DNA of 64,000 nucleotides, taken from positions 8,345 through 72,344 of the forward strand of contig JALSUP010000064.1 in the NCBI GenBank assembly GCA_027071315.1. Reading direction: 5' to 3'. Below are positions 13,418-24,829 of the stretch, in pieces. The notes beneath the pieces were generated by a model. That model was not told the DNA's origin and ran no database searches. It was given only the letters and a program-made list of their open reading frames with translations. A program made the position numbers and the translations under genes. The number at the start of each line of letters is the position of its first letter. Within the stretch, counting starts at the first letter, position 1. The stretch is from Sulfurovum sp. GTDB lineage: Bacteria; Campylobacterota; Campylobacteria; Campylobacterales; Sulfurovaceae.

Positions 13418-14085
13418 TGAAGATACTGCGATTCTTCCTGGCACTGATTAAGTGGCTGTTGATCTTAGCTTTTTTGGGGCTTTTGTCCATCTTTCTGCTT
13501 GATCTGTATATGGGTTATACAGCGAAAGAGAAGATCTACACAGATGTTTCCAAAGTTCCGCACCGTAAAGCAGCTCTTTTGCTCGGCACAGCAAAATATG
13601 TGGCAAAAGGGAAGAAAAATTACTTTTATGTCTACCGTATTCGTGCGGCTGTCGCTTTATGGAAAGCAGGCAAAGTAGGTGCCATTCTGGTCTCAGGAGA
13701 CAATGGCAGTAAATACTACAATGAAACCATACGCATGGAAAATGACCTCATAAAAGCAGGGGTGCCTAAAAAATACATTGCGACAGACTATGCAGGTTTC
13801 AGAACCCTGGACTCCATTGTCAGGGCAGAAGCACTTTTTGACCTCAAAGAGTATATAATCGTCTCTCAAAGATTCCATCTGGAGAGGGCACTTTTTATTG
13901 CCAGAGCAAAAGGACAGAAAGATGTCATCGGCTTTGCAGCAAAAGAGATGAAAGGTACAAAAGCAGCACGAAAAATGGCCTTTCGAGAGTATCTGGCAAG
14001 AGTGAAAGCCTTTTTGGATGTCTATATTTTAAATACACAACCTAAATTTTATGGTGAGAAAGTGAAAGTGAATTATCGGAAATGA
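13417..14085 (+). CDS. sanA: SanA/YdcF (DUF218) family membrane-anchored protein
   Basis: N-terminal TM helix. LLLGTAKY...ILVSGDNGSKYYNE...IVSQRFHLERALFIA is typical of the SanA/DUF218 family. The last roughly 22 codons are compositionally island-like. Confidence 0.7.
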   Translation: MKILRFFLALIKWLLILAFLGLLSIFLLDLYMGYTAKEKIYTDVSKVPHRKAALLLGTAKYVAKGKKNYFYVYRIRAAVALWKAGKVGAILVSGDNGSKYYNETIRMENDLIKAGVPKKYIATDYAGFRTLDSIVRAEALFDLKEYIIVSQRFHLERALFIARAKGQKDVIGFAAKEMKGTKAARKMAFREYLARVKAFLDVYILNTQPKFYGEKVKVNYRK

Positions 14086-16742
14086 CAATAACACAAATAG
14101 AAACAAACATTAGCAAACTACTCAAAAACTTTTCACAAGACAACTTTGTATTTGAATTTCTTTTGGCTTATGGTGAGCCGAAGGCTACGATCACAAGACT
14201 TAAAAAGGGTGACTTGAATCAGCTTGAGAGCAAGGGTGAAGTAACTCTACGAAAAAAGCTGTTTTTTAAAGAAGCTAACACAGAATTGCATGGCACTATT
14301 GATACCCTGAGAACCGATAGTGCTGCTTTGAAGCAGAAGCCTAGATTTATCATGGTGACTGACTACAAAACCCTACTGGCTTACGATACCAAAACAACAG
14401 ATACCTTAGATATAAACTTCAAAGAGTTGGCGAAACATTATGATTTCTTTTTGCCTTTGGCGGGTATGGAGAAGTCAACTCATGTAGATGAAAACCCGGC
14501 AGATGTCAAAGCTTCCAATCAGTTAGCCAAACTTTATGATGAAATATTGAAAAGTAATTCTACAGAGACTCACGAAGAGGTGCATGCACTCAATGTATTT
14601 TTGACCAGACTTCTGTTTTGTTATTTTGCAGAGGATTCAAATATTTTTGAAGATAATCTGTTTACAAACTCCATTTCAAACCATACACAGGTTGATGGTA
14701 GCGATTTAGGTAGTTATCTTGAAAGACTGTTTGAAGTGTTCAATACAGACGATAAAAATAGAGATAAAGCATTACCGAAATATTTAAAAGCATTTCCCTA
14801 TGTCAACGGTGGATTGTTTAGAGACACTTACCCTCTTCCAAAATTTACAACCAAGTCTAGGAATATACTTATAGACATTGGTACACTGGACTGGTCAGCA
14901 ATCAACCCTGACATATTTGGTTCTATGATCCAGGCAGTTGTAACACCTGAGCATCGTGGCGATATGGGTATGCACTACACTTCTGTACCGAACATTATGA
15001 AAGTGATGCAACCTCTGTTTTTAGATGAGCTTTATGAGGAATTTGAAAAGAGCAAATCGAGTAAGAAAAAGCTTCAAGGGTTAATCAATAGAATATCAAA
15101 TTTGAAAATCTTTGACCCTGCTTGTGGGTCTGGTAACTTTTTGATTATTGCCTATAAAGAGCTTAGACGATTGGAAATGAAGATACTGAAAGCGATTGAC
15201 GATTTGTCTTCTCAAAAAAGTTTTTCATTTAGTGAAATAAAACTTACACAGTTTTATGGCATAGAGCTAGATGACTTTGCTCATGAAGTAGCCATACTCT
15301 CACTTTGGTTGGCAGAGCACCAGATGAATTTGGAATTTTACAAAGCATTTGGAAGAACTACACCATCTTTGCCACTTCAAGATGGTGGAAATATAGTTCA
15401 TGGTAATGCTACCAGGATTGAGTGGGAGAGTGTTTGCCCTAAAGAGAATGGAGATGAGATTTACATACTTGGTAATCCTCCTTATCAGGGATATGCTAAA
15501 CAAAGTTTAGAACAAAAAGCAGATATGATTTTTGTTTTTGAGAATGTTGAGAACTATAAAAAACTAGACTATATTTCATGTTGGTTTTATAAATCAGCAA
15601 AATACATACAAAGAGTCAATTCTAAATATGCACTAGTTTCAACAAATTCTATAGGTCAAGGAGAACAAGTCGGCTTAATGTGGCCTAATATTTTCAATTT
15701 TGATTTAGAAATATTTTTTGCATATCAATCTTTTAAATGGAAAAATAATGCTAAAAATAATGCTGGTGTAACAGTTGTTATTGTTGGCATTAGAAATATA
15801 ACCAATGAAAAAAAGTATATTTTTAAGAATAATATTAAACATGAAGCTAAACATATTAACTCTTATCTCGTTGATAGTCATAATATATTTGTAAGAGGTA
15901 CAAGAAAAAGTCTTTCAGAACTACCAGAAATGATAATAGGAAGTAAAGCATCAGATGATGGAAACTTAATTTTATCAGTAGAAGAAAGAGATAAATTAAT
16001 AAATGACTATCCCGAAGCAGAACCATTAATGAAAAAGTATATTGGTGCTGATGATTTTTTAAAAAGCAAGGTAAGATATTGTATTTTAATTAATGAAAAA
16101 GATGTTGATTTTGCCTATAGAATTCCTCCTTTGAAAATTAGATTTGATAAATGTGCAGCATTTAGAGAAAAGAGTAAAAAGAAAAGTACTCAAAAATTAG
16201 CATTAAGGCCATATGCTTTTGATGAACAAAAATATCAAGAACTTGATTCAATTATTGTTCCCCAAACCACTTCTGAAAATAGAGAATATATACCTATCGG
16301 ATTTTTTAATTCAGAATATGTAATTTCAAATGGAGTAAGGCTAATTTATAATGTTCACCCTTGGATATTTGGCTTATTGTCTTCTAAGTTGCATAATGTT
16401 TGGATACAAAAAGTTGCAGGAAGATTAGAAACTCGTATTCAATATTCTAATACAATTTGCTATAACACTTTTCCATTTCCAAAAATTACTGATAAAGAAA
16501 GAGAAGAGATAACCGATTTAGTATTTAATATCTTAGATGAAAGAGAACAGCATTCAGAAAAAACATTAGCCCAAATGTATGATCCAGACAAAATGCCACA
16601 AGGCCTAAAAGAAGCTCATCATCAATTAGATTTAGCCATAGAGAAATGTTATAGAAAAAAACCGTTCGAGAGTGATGAAGAGAGACTTGAATATCTTTTT
16701 AGGCTTTATGAAGAGATGGTTGAGGAGGAAGCTAAAAAATGA
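14082..16742 (+). CDS. MmeI-family (type IIL/IIG-like) N6-adenine DNA methyltransferase with a probably inactive N-terminal nuclease-like domain
   Basis: Collinear with my recollection of MmeI: LLFCYFAEDSNIFE, AFPYVNGGLF, GMHYTSVPNIMKVMQPLFLDEL, FDPACGSGNFL (motif I), GNPPYQGY (motif IV), STNSIGQGEQV, SSENREYIPIGF, IFGLLSSKLHNVW, MYDPDKMP. The start overlaps the sanA stop (ATGA). Confidence 0.85.
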   Translation: MTITQIETNISKLLKNFSQDNFVFEFLLAYGEPKATITRLKKGDLNQLESKGEVTLRKKLFFKEANTELHGTIDTLRTDSAALKQKPRFIMVTDYKTLLAYDTKTTDTLDINFKELAKHYDFFLPLAGMEKSTHVDENPADVKASNQLAKLYDEILKSNSTETHEEVHALNVFLTRLLFCYFAEDSNIFEDNLFTNSISNHTQVDGSDLGSYLERLFEVFNTDDKNRDKALPKYLKAFPYVNGGLFRDTYPLPKFTTKSRNILIDIGTLDWSAINPDIFGSMIQAVVTPEHRGDMGMHYTSVPNIMKVMQPLFLDELYEEFEKSKSSKKKLQGLINRISNLKIFDPACGSGNFLIIAYKELRRLEMKILKAIDDLSSQKSFSFSEIKLTQFYGIELDDFAHEVAILSLWLAEHQMNLEFYKAFGRTTPSLPLQDGGNIVHGNATRIEWESVCPKENGDEIYILGNPPYQGYAKQSLEQKADMIFVFENVENYKKLDYISCWFYKSAKYIQRVNSKYALVSTNSIGQGEQVGLMWPNIFNFDLEIFFAYQSFKWKNNAKNNAGVTVVIVGIRNITNEKKYIFKNNIKHEAKHINSYLVDSHNIFVRGTRKSLSELPEMIIGSKASDDGNLILSVEERDKLINDYPEAEPLMKKYIGADDFLKSKVRYCILINEKDVDFAYRIPPLKIRFDKCAAFREKSKKKSTQKLALRPYAFDEQKYQELDSIIVPQTTSENREYIPIGFFNSEYVISNGVRLIYNVHPWIFGLLSSKLHNVWIQKVAGRLETRIQYSNTICYNTFPFPKITDKEREEITDLVFNILDEREQHSEKTLAQMYDPDKMPQGLKEAHHQLDLAIEKCYRKKPFESDEERLEYLFRLYEEMVEEEAKK

Positions 16743-17290
16743 ATGAAATTTCTGTATATTTAGATGGACTAAATAAGTATTCATCTTTAATTTTAATGTT
16801 TGCAACATTGGTTTATGTCTATTTCACATACAAGCTAACAAAAGAGACTACAAAATTAAGAGAGGTAGAAACCACACCCTTTATGTCAATATACATCAAA
16901 GTAGATTCAAAGTTAAGTCTTATTGTAGAAAATATAGGTAAAGCACCTGCTTATGATATTGAATTTAAAATGGATAAAAAGTATATAAGTTGTTTCCCTT
17001 GTGGTTGTGATTTTAAACATAAAATATCCTATTTCTCCCCAAATCAACAGCTTCCTATATGCATGGATCAATATTTTAATCTTGAAAAATTAGACTTTGA
17101 CAGTATACCTATAGAAGTAAAGTACTCTTCAAAAGATGGTCAACTATTTGAAGAAGTTTTTACAATAGAATGGAAGTATCTTTCTGGTAGTGCATTAGAG
17201 ACTGATAATCTTGTTGAAATTAAGAAAGCGATAGAAGAAACAGCTGAAGAGATAAAAGAATTACATAAAACTATAAAAGATAAAGGCTGA
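16739..17290 (+). CDS. single-pass membrane protein of unknown function
   Basis: 183 aa. ATGA overlap with the MTase stop. TM helix SSLILMFATLVYVYFTY, then a beta-rich domain with CFPCGC and a charged C-terminal helix. Confidence 0.6.
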   Translation: MNEISVYLDGLNKYSSLILMFATLVYVYFTYKLTKETTKLREVETTPFMSIYIKVDSKLSLIVENIGKAPAYDIEFKMDKKYISCFPCGCDFKHKISYFSPNQQLPICMDQYFNLEKLDFDSIPIEVKYSSKDGQLFEEVFTIEWKYLSGSALETDNLVEIKKAIEETAEEIKELHKTIKDKG

Positions 17291-17292
17291 AA

Positions 17293-18762
17293 ATGACATG
17301 TGAAACTTTAAAAGATTTAGTGCATCAATATGCTAAAGAGTCCGAATGGGTTGAATTTAAAGTCAATAATGAAGAGCCTCATATGATAGGAAAATATATT
17401 TCTGCACTGGCTAACTCTGCTACACTCCATGATATAGCTAAAGCCTATCTTGTTTATGGTGTTGAGGATGAAACGCTAAAGTTACTTGGAACAGACTTTA
17501 AACCTAAAGTGACTAAAAAGGGAAATGAAGAGCTAGAAAACTGGTTACATAGATTACTTGAACCAAGTGTAGAGTTTGTCATTTATGAGATAGAGTGTGA
17601 TGATTTGTCCTTTTCGGTTTTTGAAATCTATAGTGCGAAACACAGACCCATAAGTTTTGATGGGAAAGAGTACATAAGAGTTGGAAGTTATAAGAAAAAT
17701 CTAAAAGATTATCCTGAAAAAGAGCGTATGTTGTGGCGTAAGTTTTCATCATTTTGTTTTGAAGAAGAGATAGCAAAGAAGAGTCTCACACAGGAAGAAG
17801 TACTTGGACTTATTGATTTTGAAGGCTTCTTTAGTTTGATTGGAATACCTTATAATCATGATATGAGTACAGGTGAGTATGTTATTGGGAAATTGGCAGA
17901 ATATAGTCTTATAGAAATAGACAAGTCGTCATTGGGGATCAGCAATCTTTCCATTACAAATATGGGTGCCATTTTATTTGCGAGAGATCTTTCTAACTTT
18001 CCGCTACTCAACCGAAAGAAACTCAGGGTCATAAAATACAAAGGCAATGGTAAGTTTGATACCGAATTTGAACAAGAGGGTAGAAAAGGTTATGCAATCG
18101 CTTTTCAGGGATTAGTGAAATTCATTATGAATAAACTTCCTCAAAATGAAGTGATAAAAGATGCACTTAGAAAAGATGTATCGCTTTACCCTGAAATTGC
18201 TATTCGGGAATTAATAGCCAATGCGTTGATCCATCAAGACTTTTCCATCGCTGGTACAAATCCGATGATTGAAATATATGATAACCGGATAGAAATTACT
18301 AATTCTGGAAAACCTTTGATAGATACACTCAGGCTTATAGACTATCAGCCCAAATCAAGAAATGAAAAACTTGCAAATCTCATGAGGTTGATGGGGATTT
18401 GTGAAGAAAGAGGTTCAGGGATAGATAAAGTCATAAATGCTATTGAAATTTTTCAGTTACCTGCACCTAAATTTATTGCAGAAGAGGATTATTTTAAAGT
18501 AATACTTTTTGCTCCATTGAGTTTTGAAGACATGGATAAACAAGATCGTATCAGGGCAACATATCAGCACTGTTCATTAAAGTTTTTAAATCAGGAGTAT
18601 ATGACAAACTCTACATTACGAGAACGTTTTGGTTTGGATAAGAAGCAACATTCCAAGGCATCTAAGATGATCAGCGATACACTGGAAAAGGAATTGATCA
18701 AACCTGCTGATCCTGAGAATAAGTCCACTAAACATGTGAAGTATATCCCTTTTTATGGGTAA
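17293..18762 (+). CDS. AlbA_2 (Schlafen-type) + HATPase_c_4 + C-terminal wHTH protein (often annotated 'putative transcriptional regulator / RecG-like')
   Basis: ESEWVEFKVNN...ISALANSA...YLVYGVED (AlbA_2). IRELIANALIHQDF...IEIYDNRIEITNSG (GHKL-type ATPase). C-terminal NSTLRERFGL...ELIKP looks like a winged helix. Confidence 0.75.
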   Translation: MTCETLKDLVHQYAKESEWVEFKVNNEEPHMIGKYISALANSATLHDIAKAYLVYGVEDETLKLLGTDFKPKVTKKGNEELENWLHRLLEPSVEFVIYEIECDDLSFSVFEIYSAKHRPISFDGKEYIRVGSYKKNLKDYPEKERMLWRKFSSFCFEEEIAKKSLTQEEVLGLIDFEGFFSLIGIPYNHDMSTGEYVIGKLAEYSLIEIDKSSLGISNLSITNMGAILFARDLSNFPLLNRKKLRVIKYKGNGKFDTEFEQEGRKGYAIAFQGLVKFIMNKLPQNEVIKDALRKDVSLYPEIAIRELIANALIHQDFSIAGTNPMIEIYDNRIEITNSGKPLIDTLRLIDYQPKSRNEKLANLMRLMGICEERGSGIDKVINAIEIFQLPAPKFIAEEDYFKVILFAPLSFEDMDKQDRIRATYQHCSLKFLNQEYMTNSTLRERFGLDKKQHSKASKMISDTLEKELIKPADPENKSTKHVKYIPFYG

Positions 18763-18953
18763 AATCTTCTGTAATGCTTTCGTCATATTACCTTATGTAA
18801 AGCTTAAAATTATTTGTATGAGTACGTATATACGGCTGCTAGAAGGGGGTGTCTAGAGTTGTATTCTCTGTCATCGTTAAAGAAAAAAGTAAAAATATGA
18901 GTATGTCTAAAGTAAATTTGTTTAGACAACTGAAAAAATCTTAAAGGGAAATA

Positions 18954-20879
18954 ATGCCAAATATTGTAGAAGTAGAGTATGAACAAACAGGGAAAAGTGT
19001 TAATGTAAATGATACTGGGATGAGACCCATGGCAGCCCGTGCTTATGAAGCTCGTACTGCAAAATATTTATTAATCAAAGCCCCTCCCGCATCAGGTAAA
19101 TCAAGAGCACTAATGTTTATAGCTTTGGATAAACTGTATCACCAAGGATTGAAAAAAGTGATTGTGGCTGTTCCAGAGAGATCTATTGGAGGTTCATTCA
19201 CACAAACTGATTTAAAAAATCAGAATAATTTTTTTGAAAATTGGGAGCCAAAAGATAAATATAACCTTTGCAACACAGAAGATAACAAAAGTAAAGTACA
19301 AGCTTTTAAAGAGTTTCTGGATAGCGATGAAAAGATTTTAATCTGCACACATGCTACACTAAGGTTTGCATTTGACCAACTTAATGAATCGGCATTTGAT
19401 AATACTCTTTTAGCAATTGATGAATTTCACCATGTATCATCAGACGGAGAAAATAGACTGGGTGAAGTGCTACGAAACCTCATGGAAAAATCAAACTGTC
19501 ACATCGTTGCTATGACAGGTTCTTATTTTAGAGGCGATAGTGTTCCTGTACTTCTACCGGAAGATGAAGCTAAATTTACAAAAGTACCCTACAACTACTA
19601 TGAGCAATTAAACGGATATGAGTACCTAAAATCACTTGGGATAGGGTATCACTTTTATCAGGGCAGATACACAAGTGCCATTGATGAGATATTGGACACC
19701 GACAAGAAGACTATTTTGCATATACCCAATGTTAATTCCGGAGAGTCCACAAAAGACAAACATAGAGAAGTTGGTACTATCTTAGACATTATAGGTCGGG
19801 TTAAAGAGGTTACGGATGATGGGGTAATCATATTAAAGCGACATACTGACGGGAAGCTTCTGAAAGTAGCAGACCTGGTGAATGACGACCCAAAAGAGAG
19901 AGATAAAATCATTACTTATTTACGAAATATAAAAAGTGTTGATGATATGGATTTGATTATTGCCCTTGGTATGGCAAAAGAGGGGTTTGACTGGCCTTAT
20001 TGTGAACATGCTTTAACGGTTGGGTATAGAAGTTCGCTTACAGAAATCATACAAATTATTGGTCGTGCTACAAGAGACAGCGAGAACAAAACCACCGCAC
20101 AATTTACAAACCTTATAGCCCAACCTGATGCTCACAATGACGAAGTGAAACTCTCTGTAAACAATATGCTCAAAGCAATCACTTCATCACTCCTAATGGA
20201 ACAAGTGTTGGCCCCTAGTTTCAAGTTTAAACCTAAGTTTGATAATGACAATGAACCACCTAAAAAAGGTGAATTGAAAATCAGAGGTTTTAAAAAGCCT
20301 ACGAGTACAAAAGTCAATGATATTATTGAAAGTGATTTAAATGACTTAAAGGCTGCCATTTTGCAAGACCCTCAAATGTTACAGGCAATGCCGGGCAATA
20401 TTGAGCCAGAGGTCATCAATGAAGTTTTAATACCTAAGATCATTAAAGTGAAATATCCTGATTTGGATGAGAATGAAGTCAAAGAGTTAAGCCAATATGT
20501 GGTGCTTGACAGTGTGGTGAGAAATGCCACCATTGAAACCAATGGAGATAAAAAGTTCATACGAATGGCCGATAAATTCATTAATCTGGATGAATTAAAT
20601 ATTGACCTGATTAACAGTATAAATCCATTTCAACAGGCATTTGAAATTTTATCTAAACAAGTGACTACTGGTGTACTTAAATTGATTCAAGAAGCCATTG
20701 AAGGCACCAGGATCAAGATGGACTTTGAAGAAGCAAGTATATTGTGGCCTAAAATTCAAGAGTTTATAAAAGAGCACGGAAGAGAGCCAGACTTGAAATC
20801 TACTGATGGAAAAGAAAAGAGAATGGCAGAGTGTATTATTTACCTAAAAGAAGAAAAGAGAAAACGAGCCAATGGATAA
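18954..20879 (+). CDS. SF2 (DEAD/DEAH, Res-like) helicase with an uncharacterised ~240-aa C-terminal region
   Basis: Motif I KAPPASGKSRA, Ia VAVPERS, II LLAIDEFHHV, III AMTGSYFRGD, VI QIIGRATRD. Preceded by a 191-bp gap and an AAAGGGA RBS. Confidence 0.8.
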   Translation: MPNIVEVEYEQTGKSVNVNDTGMRPMAARAYEARTAKYLLIKAPPASGKSRALMFIALDKLYHQGLKKVIVAVPERSIGGSFTQTDLKNQNNFFENWEPKDKYNLCNTEDNKSKVQAFKEFLDSDEKILICTHATLRFAFDQLNESAFDNTLLAIDEFHHVSSDGENRLGEVLRNLMEKSNCHIVAMTGSYFRGDSVPVLLPEDEAKFTKVPYNYYEQLNGYEYLKSLGIGYHFYQGRYTSAIDEILDTDKKTILHIPNVNSGESTKDKHREVGTILDIIGRVKEVTDDGVIILKRHTDGKLLKVADLVNDDPKERDKIITYLRNIKSVDDMDLIIALGMAKEGFDWPYCEHALTVGYRSSLTEIIQIIGRATRDSENKTTAQFTNLIAQPDAHNDEVKLSVNNMLKAITSSLLMEQVLAPSFKFKPKFDNDNEPPKKGELKIRGFKKPTSTKVNDIIESDLNDLKAAILQDPQMLQAMPGNIEPEVINEVLIPKIIKVKYPDLDENEVKELSQYVVLDSVVRNATIETNGDKKFIRMADKFINLDELNIDLINSINPFQQAFEILSKQVTTGVLKLIQEAIEGTRIKMDFEEASILWPKIQEFIKEHGREPDLKSTDGKEKRMAECIIYLKEEKRKRANG

Positions 20880-21150
20880 AGAAACAATACTAAATAACAT
20901 TTTTGAAAGTGACCCATTGGGATTATTGGAGATAAAAGCCAAAAATCCGGTTATAACGGCTGACGATAGGCTGATAGCTACCTTTGAAGAGATTAATGAC
21001 TTTTATGAAAAGCATGGGTGTGAACCTAAAAAAACAACCGATATGAATGAAAGAGGATTGTTCTCACGACTTAAAGGCTTACGAGCTAATCCACAAAAGA
21101 TACAAGCTCTTAAAAAATATGATAGATTTAATCTACTTGAAGAGGACTAA
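20872..21150 (+). CDS. 92-aa protein resembling the helicase C-terminal module (adaptor-like)
   Basis: 8-nt overlap with the helicase gene. ILNNIFESDPLGLLE and FEEINDFYEKHGCEP parallel helicase IDLINSINPF..FEIL and WPKIQEFIKEHGREP. Confidence 0.55.
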   Translation: MDKETILNNIFESDPLGLLEIKAKNPVITADDRLIATFEEINDFYEKHGCEPKKTTDMNERGLFSRLKGLRANPQKIQALKKYDRFNLLEED

Positions 21151-22050
21151 ATGGCTGATATAAACTCACTTGACGACATTTTAAACAGTGACACTTTTGG
21201 TATTTTGGATAAACAGGATGAAGAGGATATTTTTACACTTAAAAATGTTCCTCATGTTGAAAAAGAACGAGCAGCAACAGACTTTGTAGCAAGAAGAAAA
21301 ACACTTGAAGATTTTGAAGCATATGAAGAGATGTTTGCACAATGTCAGAAAGATTTAAAAAGTGGAAAAAGAAAGCTTGTTAAATTTAATGAGAAATACT
21401 TCGAGAAAGGTGCTTTCTTTGTTTTAAAAGGTGTCTTGGTTTATTTGGAAGATATACAAAATCCAAGGAAAGACAAGAACCATAAGCTGGATGCGAGAAC
21501 TACTACCATATTTGAAAATGGTACATACTCAAATATGCTGCTTCGTTCACTTGGAAAAGGTTTGTATGAAGATGGCTATTTTGTGAGTGAACATGAAGAT
21601 AGAGTGCTCGATAAGCTGAGTCCAATCACCAATGACGATACACAAAATGGTTATATCTATATATTAAAGTCATTAAGTAACGATGACAGAATTGTTACAA
21701 AACAAAACCTATATAAAATTGGTTTTTCAACAACCGCAGTTGAAACAAGAATTAAAAATGCAAAGAAAGACCCCACTTATTTAATGGCAGAGGTTCAAAC
21801 TGTATCGGCTTATGAAGTTTACAATGTTAACCCGCATAAATTAGAACAATTGATACATAAGTTTTTTAGTCATAGCTGTTTAGATATTGATATTATTGAT
21901 GAAAGTGGTAACACATACAAACCAAGAGAATGGTTTGCAGCTCCATTGGAAGTCATTGAAGAGGCTGTTGAGCTTATAATTAATGGTAGGATTGTTGATT
22001 ATCGTTATGATGAAGTGAATGAAGTGATTATTAGCAAGGAAAGAGTGTAG
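21151..22050 (+). CDS. T5orf172 / GIY-YIG-superfamily nuclease-domain protein
   Basis: C-terminal NGYIYILKS...NLYKIGFSTTAVETRIKNAKK...HKLEQLIHKFF...PREWF matches the T5orf172 (GIY-YIG-like) pattern. The N-terminus carries the LDDILNSDTFGILD motif shared with the preceding ORF. Confidence 0.75.
   Translation: MADINSLDDILNSDTFGILDKQDEEDIFTLKNVPHVEKERAATDFVARRKTLEDFEAYEEMFAQCQKDLKSGKRKLVKFNEKYFEKGAFFVLKGVLVYLEDIQNPRKDKNHKLDARTTTIFENGTYSNMLLRSLGKGLYEDGYFVSEHEDRVLDKLSPITNDDTQNGYIYILKSLSNDDRIVTKQNLYKIGFSTTAVETRIKNAKKDPTYLMAEVQTVSAYEVYNVNPHKLEQLIHKFFSHSCLDIDIIDESGNTYKPREWFAAPLEVIEEAVELIINGRIVDYRYDEVNEVIISKERV

Positions 22051-24829
<2,779 letters not shown>

What the first reader, a model, noticed from the sequence alone, without database searches (positions are those of the whole stretch)
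20590..21215. One short module is shared by three consecutive gene products: helicase C-terminus, the whole 92-aa protein, and the nuclease N-terminus
Motif 1 occurs three times: helicase IDLINSINPFQQAFEIL, the 92-aa protein ILNNIFESDPLGLLEI, and the nuclease LDDILNSDTFGILDK. Its consensus is roughly (I/L)(L/F)xSDx(L/F)G(L/I)L(D/E). Motif 2 occurs twice: helicase WPKIQEFIKEHGREPDLKSTDGKEKRMAECIIYLK, and the 92-aa protein FEEINDFYEKHGCEPKKTTDMNERGLFSRLKGLR. It is reminiscent of 'helicase-associated' HA-type repeats. The 92-aa ORF therefore looks like a free-standing copy of the helicase's last ~95 residues, and the nuclease starts with the same first motif. A shared peptide module across adjacent subunits is what one would expect for a docking or competition interface that recruits the nuclease to the helicase or gates that recruitment.
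Basis: seen in the sequence. Interest (0 to 1): 0.62.

Follow-up and report, generated by a model that had tools for sequence, protein, structure and literature searches.

The report
Split nuclease front domain, YeeABC operon
The 92-residue gene is the detached front end of the neighbouring nuclease in a known but mechanistically unsolved methylase-helicase-nuclease defence operon; it carries a twice-repeated, probable docking peptide and a small helical module that also ends the helicase.

Summary
The quoted peptides are all present. Profile tests confirm two of the three claimed similarities.

- Motif 1 (phi-[DE]-[DE]-I-phi-x-x-D-x-phi-G-phi-L) is shared by the 92-aa ORF and the nuclease N-terminus (hhalign prob 97%, z=14). 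It is not in the helicase (z<=0.4).
- Motif 2 (helix, GxEP loop, helix) is shared by the 92-aa ORF and helicase residues ~600-634 (E 2.5e-7 to 2.8e-5, z=11.8).

The main correction is that the 92-aa ORF is not an independent adaptor. It lies in frame with the nuclease, separated by one TAA followed directly by ATG. In most relatives the two form one 381-425-aa protein. Motif 1 is therefore an internal twin repeat of one nuclease.

The split state is real and selected: it has its own SD and ATG, and dN/dS is 0.05-0.37. It toggled with the fused state at least 8 times.

The operon belongs to the YeeA(DnmA)-YeeB-YeeC family described in 2009: an MmeI-like methylase without PD-ExK, an SF2 helicase and a T5orf172/GIY-YIG nuclease. 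Here it also holds two cargo genes.

The two motif-1 copies lie in flexible segments and co-vary within proteins. That fits tethered docking peptides, but binding is untested.

The parts
14082..16742 (+). YeeA/DnmA-type MmeI-family methyltransferase with target recognition domain (TRD), 886 aa; its N-terminal ~80 residues cannot be aligned to the MmeI nuclease motif region
   Evidence: Pfam MmeI_N, MmeI_hel, MmeI_Mtase, MmeI_TRD and MmeI_C all match. phmmer against MmeI structure 5hr4 gives E 8e-188, but the alignment only starts at query residue 82, matching MmeI residue 103. Family conservation of the N-terminus is shown.
16739..18762 (+). Two cargo genes lying between the methylase and helicase genes: a 183-aa protein with no family hit, and a 489-aa SLFN_AlbA_2 + HATPase_c_4 protein. 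They are not part of the conserved core.
   Evidence: Canonical operons L030-L034 have nothing in this position. L003/L004 carry different genes of 589 and 471 aa. L029 also carries an AlbA_2/HATPase_c_4 gene.
18954..20879 (+). YeeB-type SF2 (DEAD/ResIII) helicase, 641 aa
   Evidence: Pfam DEAD, ResIII and Helicase_C match. Foldseek finds only generic SF2 helicases such as RadD, Hef, HsdR and MDA5. The gene is 72-90% identical across loci, and 49% identical in a Bacteroidaceae MAG.
20604..20654 (+). The stretch is conserved within helicases but is not related to motif 1.
   Evidence: Conserved in helicases. hhalign against both motif-1 profiles gives z=-1.0 and 0.4. The motif-1 HMM does not hit it.
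20706..20876 (+). Helicase C-terminal helix-loop-helix tail, residues 585-641. The part matched to the 92-aa ORF is residues 600-634 (20751-20855).
   Evidence: AF2 gives H591-608, loop 609-618 (GREPDLKSTD) and H619-639, with pLDDT 84-89. hhalign against the nuclease N-domain gives E 2.5e-7, z=11.8 and E 2.8e-5 against the full helicase profile. The tail is strongly conserved in distant operons.
20872..21150 (+). 92-aa ORF: the detached N-terminal domain of the YeeC-type nuclease. Its start overlaps the helicase stop by 8 nt.
   Evidence: 95 homologues were found. The same domain forms residues 1-92 of the fused 381-425-aa nucleases. dN/dS among split copies is 0.05-0.37.
20884..20934 (+). Motif 1, copy a (92-aa ORF residues 5-21, TILNNIFESDPLGLLEI): an acidic amphipathic helix in a flexible segment
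   Evidence: consensus; z=14.2. In the AF2 model it is helix 3-12 with pLDDT about 62-65.
20959..21120 (+). Three-helix bundle of the N-domain (residues 30-83). Helix 1, the GxEP loop and helix 2 together form motif 2.
   Evidence: AF2 gives H30-48, H58-72 and H74-83 with pLDDT about 88-92. Only sub-threshold Pfam hits were found: PMBR in 12/32 members, DUF4041 in 8/32 and HA in 1/32.
21141..21153 (+). Fission junction: AGAGGA (Shine-Dalgarno, formed by the last codons of the 92-aa ORF), then TAA (21148-21150), then ATG (21151-21153), all in one reading frame
   Evidence: Re-fused relatives read W, Q or K at the former stop and keep 'MADINS'.
21151..22050 (+). YeeC-type nuclease body, 299 aa: motif 1 copy b, an acidic linker, a middle beta-rich domain and a T5orf172/GIY-YIG domain (residues 167-276, nt 21649-21978)
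   Evidence: Pfam T5orf172 8.6e-16 and MUG113 4.9e-14. AF2 model of the fused homologue. Invariant Y261, K280, R291, E351 and W352 in P0098 numbering.
21163..21213 (+). Motif 1, copy b (nuclease residues 5-21, NSLDDILNSDTFGILDK)
   Evidence: In the AF2 model it is helix 99-104 of the fused form, with pLDDT 56-59, followed by a disordered acidic linker. It co-varies with copy a.

Best explanation
SHOWN.

The stretch covers the end of the helicase gene, a 92-aa ORF and the start of the nuclease gene. These lie in a YeeA(DnmA)-YeeB-YeeC-type restriction-like operon: an MmeI-family methyltransferase/TRD that lacks the MmeI nuclease motif, an SF2 helicase and a T5orf172/GIY-YIG nuclease.

The 92-aa ORF is the N-terminal domain of that nuclease. 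A gene fission has cut it off. The fission kept the reading frame (TAA directly followed by ATG) and created a Shine-Dalgarno site from the last codons of the ORF. In most relatives, including other phyla, the two parts form one protein of about 385-415 aa.

The ancestral nuclease has this order:
1. motif 1a
2. a three-helix bundle
3. motif 1b
4. an acidic disordered linker
5. a beta-rich middle domain
6. the GIY-YIG domain

Motif 1 has the consensus phi-[DE]-[DE]-I-[LF]-x-[NDS]-D-x-[LF]-G-[LI]-L. It is an acidic amphipathic helix that sits in low-confidence, flexible segments. Its two copies co-vary within proteins. The first two helices of the bundle (helix, GxEP loop, helix) resemble the last ~50 residues of the helicase.

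INFERRED.

The motif-1 helices are tethered docking peptides that bind the same kind of surface on a partner. The paralogous helix-loop-helix modules on the helicase tail and the nuclease front domain are the attachment points that assemble methylase, motor and nuclease into one ATP-dependent restriction complex. Because split and fused forms interconvert freely under purifying selection, the front domain must work without a covalent link, that is, through non-covalent contacts.

Confidence in the identity and evolution part is about 0.9. Confidence in the docking function is about 0.4.
For: Fusion and fission:
- 41 of the 120 best nuclease homologues are 381-401 aa long and begin with the 92-aa sequence.
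- 15 of 22 fetched loci are fused, 3 including the window have an in-frame stop followed by ATG, and 5 are split in different frames with their own SD.
- The diverse representatives (one per 50%-identity cluster; 35-60% identical to the window N-domain) are fused and carry both motif copies.
- Split and fused states interleave on the nuclease tree, and at least 8 changes are forced by supported branches.
- Re-fused forms keep 'MADINS' with W, Q or K at the old stop.
- dN/dS of the split ORFs is 0.05-0.37.

Operon identity:
- The order MmeI-like gene, helicase, nuclease is found in every locus that is long enough, including Bacteroidota.
- Pfam domain matches.
- The alignment to MmeI omits the catalytic N-terminus.
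- The family is described in PMC2731913, PMC7261158 and PMC9973331.

Motifs:
- hhalign with a shuffle null.
- Genome-wide specificity.
- No such module in the methylase.
- Within-protein co-variation of the two motif-1 copies: 6.81 against 5.81 identities out of 14, with 0 of 2000 permutations reaching the observed value, on 32 representatives from different 50%-identity clusters.

Structure:
- Both motif-1 copies are short helices in segments with pLDDT 54-65, next to domains with pLDDT about 90.
- The helicase tail and the front domain share the same helix, 9-10-residue GxEP loop, helix layout.
Against: - No binding was tested and no multimer model could be run.
- The motif-2 similarity rests on 34-42 columns. 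At HMM-to-sequence level it is not significant genome-wide (E=0.17). A helix, 'G-basic-x-P' loop, helix pattern also gives sub-threshold hits to unrelated Pfam repeats (PMBR), so convergence is possible.
- The column-shuffle null destroys helical periodicity and may overstate z.
- Co-variation of the two motif-1 copies could come from gene conversion rather than a shared partner.
- The AF2 helicase model is mediocre overall (mean pLDDT 64.6).
- The B. subtilis member of the family showed no restriction or phage defence (PMC9973331), so activity of any given copy is not assured.
- Sequence identity to B. subtilis YeeB and YeeC was not checked directly.
Confidence: 0.75

Rival explanations
1. 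The free 92-aa protein acts as a regulator. It competes with the nuclease for one docking site through its own motif 1, or mimics the helicase tail, and so gates nuclease recruitment.
For: After fission, both the 92-aa protein and the nuclease retain a motif-1 copy. The 92-aa protein shares the helix-loop-helix with the helicase tail. The split state is maintained under purifying selection.
Against: Fused forms are ancestral and the most widespread. Stop-to-sense reversions are frequent, which argues that linkage is nearly neutral rather than a new regulatory layer. Both copies already exist in one polypeptide, where competition makes little sense. The helicase lacks motif 1.
Confidence: 0.12
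2. Motif 1 is an intramolecular latch. The acidic amphipathic helices, with the acidic linker, fold back on a basic surface of the nuclease (its own helix-loop-helix or the GIY-YIG DNA-binding face). This would keep the nuclease auto-inhibited until the helicase or methylase displaces them.
For: Motif 1 and the following linker are strongly acidic: net charge -8.4 over nuclease residues 1-45, while the helicase tail is basic at +1.5. There are two motif copies and two helix-loop-helix modules. The copies co-vary within proteins.
Against: AF2 does not dock either helix confidently on any domain of the same chain (pLDDT 54-65, pTM 0.40). The front domain still works when it is a separate polypeptide.
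Confidence: 0.15
3. The helicase-tail similarity (motif 2) is convergent or due to chance. It would be a generic helix, GxxP loop, helix with no common origin or common partner. In that case only motif 1 is a real shared element.
For: Pairwise BLAST gives E=0.011. The HMM-to-sequence search gives E=0.17 genome-wide. Sub-threshold PMBR hits fall on the same stretch. Only 34-42 columns align.
Against: Profile-profile comparison gives E 2.5e-7 to 2.8e-5 and z=11.8, landing exactly on the tail within a 641-column profile. The same profiles find nothing in an 886-column methylase profile. The secondary-structure layout is identical. The two are the best reciprocal or near-best non-self hits in the genome.
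Confidence: 0.2
4. The in-frame TAA is a disabling mutation, or a site of programmed read-through, so that the 92-aa ORF is not a gene in its own right.
For: A single in-frame stop separates the two ORFs. Sense variants occur at the same codon in relatives.
Against: A Shine-Dalgarno site and an ATG directly follow the stop in every split locus. Other split loci are in different frames, where read-through cannot rejoin them. About 80 of 121 close relatives are split. dN/dS is 0.05-0.37. Both halves are intact.
Confidence: 0.04

Closest known systems
YeeA(DnmA)-YeeB-YeeC cluster of Bacillus subtilis, also called the 'second set' of MmeI homologues (Morgan et al. 2009, PMC2731913; Nye et al. 2020, PMC7261158; mBio 2023, PMC9973331); homologues in Vibrio crassostreae are cited there as affecting phage sensitivity
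   Same: It has the same three core genes in the same order: an MmeI-like methyltransferase/TRD without the PD-ExK motif, a DEAD-family SF2 helicase and a GIY-YIG/T5orf172 protein with an N-terminal extension. It also lies in a low-GC island (GC 0.31-0.36 against 0.41-0.46 in flanking 2-kb windows).
   Different: Here two cargo genes sit between the methylase and the helicase, and the nuclease gene is split into a 92-aa and a 299-aa ORF. The twin motif 1 and the helix-loop-helix shared with the helicase tail did not turn up in five full-text searches or in the passages I read of three papers on the family. Direct alignment to the B. subtilis proteins was not done.
Type I restriction enzymes (for example EcoR124I HsdR) and Type ISP enzymes (for example LlaGI)
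   Same: They combine an N6-adenine methylase/specificity unit, an SF2 translocase and a nuclease. Foldseek lists HsdR among the helicase matches. From general knowledge, the HsdR C-terminal helical region contacts the methylase, which is a precedent for a helicase tail acting as a docking module.
   Different: The nuclease here is a separate GIY-YIG-superfamily protein, not a PD-ExK domain on the motor. The specificity unit is MmeI-like, a single chain that modifies one strand. No S subunit is present.
Pfam DUF4041 (PF13250), an N-terminal partner domain of T5orf172 proteins
   Same: It lies N-terminal to T5orf172. It gives weak matches to residues ~27-51 of the 92-aa domain in 8 of 32 members (best E 0.0039).
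   Different: All matches are below the curated cut-off (12.8 bits against 27 for the window protein). There is no evidence that DUF4041 proteins carry motif 1.
   Same: There is a superficial pattern match: an aromatic-containing helix, 'hG..P', then a second helix with basic residues.
   Different: There is no match for the window proteins. Only 1 of 32 family members matches, at E=0.09.

Membership tests
YeeA(DnmA)/YeeB/YeeC-type MmeI-like restriction-like operon | Methyltransferase collinear with MmeI (helical spacer, gamma-class N6A MTase, TRD, C-terminal domain) | tested here: met
   All five MmeI Pfam domains match (E 2.6e-108 to 4.4e-24). phmmer against MmeI 5hr4 gives E 7.9e-188 over residues 82-880.
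YeeA(DnmA)/YeeB/YeeC-type MmeI-like restriction-like operon | The first ~100 residues differ from MmeI and lack its PD-ExK (D70...E80-x-K82) motif | tested here: met
   The alignment to MmeI starts only at query residue 82, matching MmeI residue 103. Across 17 family members no conserved D...E-x-K occurs in residues 40-80. One caveat: a conserved D94...D102-x-K104 lies further downstream, and its meaning is unknown.
YeeA(DnmA)/YeeB/YeeC-type MmeI-like restriction-like operon | Followed on the same strand by a DEAD-family SF2 helicase and then a GIY-YIG/T5orf172 protein | tested here: met
   One search shows the domains. The gene order is conserved in all sufficiently long loci. In the window two cargo genes are intercalated.
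YeeA(DnmA)/YeeB/YeeC-type MmeI-like restriction-like operon | Direct sequence homology to B. subtilis YeeB and YeeC | not tested
The assignment rests on architecture and on the published family description.
YeeA(DnmA)/YeeB/YeeC-type MmeI-like restriction-like operon | Methylation-dependent restriction or phage defence | not testable with these tools
   The literature is mixed: there was no defence in B. subtilis, while PMC9973331 cites an effect in Vibrio crassostreae.
T5orf172 / GIY-YIG superfamily nuclease | Match to the family profile above the curated threshold | tested here: met
   PF10544 scores 58.7 bits (cut-off 20) and PF13455 scores 53.1 bits (cut-off 22.3).
T5orf172 / GIY-YIG superfamily nuclease | Conserved catalytic-type residues (Tyr of the GIY and YIG elements, Arg, Glu) | tested here: inconclusive
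   Y261, K280, R291, E351 and W352 are invariant in 54 diverse sequences. Mapping them onto GIY-YIG catalytic positions is by pattern only (GYIYIL, LYKIG, RIKNA, REWF), not by structural superposition.
Pfam HA (helicase-associated) domain | Match to PF03457 at or near the gathering threshold | tested here: not met
   There is no hit for the 92-aa ORF or the helicase tail. Only 1 of 32 N-domains matches, at E=0.09.
   Only 34-42 columns align, covering helicase residues 585/600-634. Motif 1 is absent from the helicase.
Short linear docking motif (functional class, not a sequence family) | Short, conserved, located in disordered or flexible segments, repeated, and co-evolving with a partner | tested here: inconclusive
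   It is short and conserved. It lies in segments with pLDDT 54-65. It occurs twice per protein, and the copies co-vary. The partner is unidentified and binding is untested.

The most novel reading that the evidence does not exclude
Motif 1 and the helix-loop-helix may form a peptide-receptor pair that works as the assembly code of YeeABC-type restriction machines. There are two acidic motif-1 helices on the nuclease and two receptor helix-loop-helix modules, one on the nuclease front domain and one on the helicase tail. One helix would clamp the nuclease to the motor, and the other would bind in cis or bridge to a second protomer or to the methylase. Lineage-specific co-variation of the helices would then set which nuclease pairs with which motor. 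The recurrent fission would turn the front domain into a diffusible adaptor. This would give the first concrete handle on how this widespread but unsolved restriction class is put together. It might also explain why the B. subtilis copy, reported to lack C-terminal stretches of YeeB and YeeC, is inactive.
Probability: 0.3. Interest if true: 0.55.

Novelty: new variant of a known kind. Interest (0 to 1): 0.36.

Why it matters
YeeA/YeeB/YeeC-type operons are common in defence islands across phyla, yet nobody knows how the nuclease-less MmeI-like methylase, the motor and the GIY-YIG nuclease communicate.

Morgan et al. (2009) only speculated that some domain mediates subunit contacts. This analysis points to three concrete elements that can be mutated:
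- a twin, co-varying acidic helix on the nuclease;
- a separable three-helix front domain;
- a related helix-loop-helix tail on the helicase.

Nature has also run the domain-separation experiment many times, through split and fused interconversion under purifying selection.

For annotation, the result prevents the small ORF from being filed as a new adaptor family, or the stop codon as a pseudogene lesion.

Tried and rejected
- Pairwise BLASTP of the three window proteins was too weak to decide anything.
- Pfam, NCBIfam and PADLOC scans of the 92-aa ORF gave no family. PADLOC has no model for this operon beyond 'Type IIG REase_MTase' for the methylase and weak PbeA/Cas3 helicase hits.
- HA-domain assignment was rejected.
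- A profile search of the N-domain against PDB sequences found nothing credible; the best hit was E=0.33 to a capsid protein.
- Foldseek of the fused nuclease model against the PDB gave no hit at E<=0.001. There was only a weak likeness of the middle beta domain to eIF5A/EF-P domain I.
- Foldseek of the helicase found only generic SF2 helicases.
- Tandem duplication of the whole ~92-aa unit: a first hhalign run with shallow alignments suggested it (E 5.7e-6 over 87 columns). With diverse alignments only the 17 motif-1 columns align, and motif 2 against nuclease unit 2 gives z=1.1. Rejected.
- Searching for either module in the MmeI-like protein or the cargo proteins found nothing.
- A homopolymer or phase-variation tract at the fission junction: none was seen.
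- Literature searches for a description of the motif, the DUF4041/T5orf172 pairing, or a solved mechanism found nothing.

Full report
**What is in the sequence**

Window 14082-22050 is a low-GC island. Its GC content is 0.31-0.36, against 0.41-0.46 in the flanking 2-kb windows. It holds six co-directional ORFs.

Pfam assigns the ORFs as follows:
- an 886-aa protein with all five MmeI domains
- a 183-aa protein with no family hit
- a 489-aa SLFN_AlbA_2 + HATPase_c_4 protein
- a 641-aa DEAD/ResIII/Helicase_C helicase
- a 92-aa ORF with no hit
- a 299-aa T5orf172/MUG113 (GIY-YIG superfamily) protein

**Checking the similarity**

Inside the window the evidence is thin. BLASTP of the 92-aa ORF against the helicase gives E=0.011 over 25 residues for motif 2. 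It does not report motif 1 in any pair.

I therefore collected homologues:
- 95 for the small ORF
- thousands for the nuclease and the helicase tail
- 594 hits for a profile of the small ORF in a representative library clustered at 50% identity
- 35 genomic loci

I compared profiles with hhalign, calibrating each comparison against 60 column-shuffled versions of the target.

| Comparison | hhalign result | z against shuffles |
|---|---|---|
| Motif 1: small ORF vs nuclease N-terminus | prob 97.3%, E 1.7e-11 | 14.2 |
| Motif 2: small ORF vs helicase tail | prob 93.4%, E 2.5e-7 | 11.8 |
| Motif 2: vs the second unit of the nuclease | not significant | 1.1 |

Against the full 641-column helicase profile, motif 2 lands exactly on residues 600-634 (E 2.8e-5). 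The same query profiles find nothing in an 886-column profile of the methylase.

An HMM of motif 1 hits only the 92-aa ORF and the nuclease among 27,531 ORFs of the whole 2.59-Mb assembly. The next hit has E=3.7.

An HMM of the small ORF's helical part ranks the helicase tail as the best non-self hit in the genome, but only at E=0.17. I therefore rate motif 2 as supported by profile-profile comparison, not proven.

**What the 92-aa ORF is**

The nuclease search gave the key result. Of the 120 best hits, 79 are 295-306 aa and 41 are 381-401 aa. The long forms begin with the 92-aa sequence.

In the window, the small ORF and the nuclease lie in the same frame. They are separated by one TAA that is directly followed by ATG. 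The last codons of the small ORF (GAA GAG GAC) supply an AGAGGA Shine-Dalgarno site.

Among 22 loci with both parts:
- 15 are fused, including the most distant ones (a Flavipsychrobacter MAG at 49% identity and a Bacteroidaceae MAG at 41%)
- 3, counting the window, have the in-frame stop followed by ATG
- 5 are split in different frames, each with its own SD and ATG

The diverse representatives are also fused. They come from different 50%-identity clusters and their N-domains are 35-60% identical to the window's. They sit in compact, overlapping three-gene operons: an MmeI-like gene of 887-921 aa, a helicase of 639-699 aa and a nuclease of 385-416 aa.

The 92-aa ORF is therefore the detached N-terminal domain of the nuclease. 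It is neither a separate adaptor family nor a copy of the helicase tail.

**The fission is real, selected and recurrent**

Pairwise dN/dS among seven stand-alone copies is 0.05-0.37.

On a tree built from the C-terminal 285 residues of the nuclease, split and fused states interleave. Parsimony needs 18 changes, and well-supported branches force at least 8.

Some fused proteins still carry the split-type start inside them, with a sense codon where the stop was: LLEGEW-MADINS, LLEDEQ-MADINS, LLEEDK-MANINS and LLEEEG-VADINS. These are stop-to-sense reversions.

Recombination could add to the interleaving. Either way, covalent linkage of the front domain is dispensable.

**Anatomy**

I modelled a natural fused homologue (P0098, 90% identical to the window nuclease) with AF2, using 54 diverse sequences. 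Mean pLDDT is 83 and pTM is 0.40. The elements in order are:
- motif 1a: a short helix, residues 3-12, pLDDT about 62-65
- a flexible stretch
- a three-helix bundle (H30-48, H58-72, H74-83), pLDDT about 90
- a linker
- motif 1b: helix 99-104, pLDDT 56-59
- a disordered acidic linker
- a beta-rich middle domain
- the T5orf172 domain

The helicase model is mediocre overall (mean pLDDT 64.6). Its tail, however, is confident (pLDDT 84-89): H591-608, a 10-residue GREP loop and H619-639. This is the same helix, GxEP loop, helix layout as H30-48, loop, H58-72 of the front domain.

The motif-1 consensus is the same in both copies: [S]-[LI]-[DE]-[DE]-I-[LF]-x-[NDS]-D-x-[LF]-G-[LI]-L-[DE].

In 32 representatives from different 50%-identity clusters, the two copies within one protein share 6.81 of 14 positions. 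With partners permuted the figure is 5.81 (sd 0.22), and 0 of 2000 permutations reach the observed value. Striking cases include P0404 (DDIFNDDDFGLLD twice) and P0430 (both copies end D-L/I-F).

**System identity**

The operon type is already described. Morgan et al. 2009 (PMC2731913) defined a second set of MmeI homologues. These lack the PD-ExK motif, differ from MmeI in the first ~100 residues and are 'invariably' flanked by a DEAD helicase (YeeB) and a GIY-YIG protein (YeeC). The authors proposed a type I-like division of labour.

Nye et al. 2020 (PMC7261158) and the 2023 mBio paper (PMC9973331) named YeeA DnmA. They showed the conserved synteny and found no restriction or phage defence in B. 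subtilis. They also cite an effect of the homologues on phage sensitivity in Vibrio crassostreae, and note that B. subtilis YeeB and YeeC lack stretches in their C-terminal domains.

The window protein fits this family. phmmer aligns it to MmeI (5hr4) only from residue 82, matching MmeI residue 103, at E 8e-188. The family shows no conserved D...E-x-K in residues 40-80.

Two things differ in the window and its Campylobacterota relatives: the two cargo genes between methylase and helicase, and the split nuclease.

**How it most likely works**

Shown:
- the domain order
- the twin motif in flexible segments
- the co-variation of the two copies
- the related helix-loop-helix on the motor's tail
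- the separability of the front domain

Inferred (about 0.4): the acidic amphipathic motif-1 helices are tethered docking peptides for one kind of surface. The helix-loop-helix modules are the attachment points that bring nuclease and motor, and through them the methylase/TRD, into one ATP-dependent restriction complex.

Charge distribution is compatible with this reading. Nuclease residues 1-45 carry a net charge of -8.4, and the helicase tail carries +1.5.

Rival readings are an auto-inhibitory latch, a competitive gate in split lineages, and convergence of motif 2. Each is listed with its refuting experiment. None is excluded by my data.

**Novelty and value**

Three things did not turn up in five full-text searches or in the passages I read of three papers on the family:
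- the twin co-varying motif
- the helix-loop-helix shared by nuclease front domain and helicase tail
- the repeated fission and re-fusion at one linker

These give testable handles on an unsolved restriction class. On their own they are modest, computational and without binding data. I score interest at 0.36.

Earlier notes of this scan on other genomes independently reached the same family assignment. Two of them also saw a split nuclease gene. I consulted them only after forming my reading.

Noticed in passing
window 16739-18762; L003:4888-8069; L029:1631-3271: The space between the methylase and helicase genes acts as a cargo slot. It is empty in canonical operons (L030-L034). In the window it holds a 183-aa protein plus an AlbA_2/HATPase_c_4 protein. 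In L029 it again holds an AlbA_2/HATPase_c_4 protein (546 aa). In L003/L004 it holds unrelated 589-aa and 471-aa proteins.
   Followed up: partly
window 14361-14393 (methylase residues 94-104): YeeA-type proteins keep a nearly invariant D94...D102-x-K104 pattern (VTDYKTLLAYDTK) in the N-terminal domain. In MmeI the aligned stretch reads D...D-L-I-T-K. I did not examine whether this is a shifted PD-(D/E)xK remnant or a structural feature.
   Followed up: no
It is conserved among helicases, but the match is not significant (hhalign E 0.1-0.2 over 8 columns).
   Followed up: partly
window 22051-22215: The ligA ORF starts at the ATG immediately after the nuclease stop. It has a ~55-residue repeat-like, lysine/glutamate-rich extension ([28 protein letters not shown]) before the usual LigA start region. 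The true start codon may lie further downstream.
   Followed up: no
L001:8596-11174 and L002:7887-11174 (Aliarcobacter): These are degraded copies. In L001 the small ORF and nuclease sit next to DDE transposases with no helicase or methylase. In L002 only the C-terminal 340 residues of the helicase remain beside a transposase.
   Followed up: partly
model of P0098, residues ~165-236 (equivalent to window nuclease residues ~75-145, nt ~21373-21585): The beta-rich middle domain between the acidic linker and T5orf172 shows only a weak Foldseek likeness to eIF5A/EF-P domain I (best E 0.014). The fold is unassigned.
   Followed up: partly
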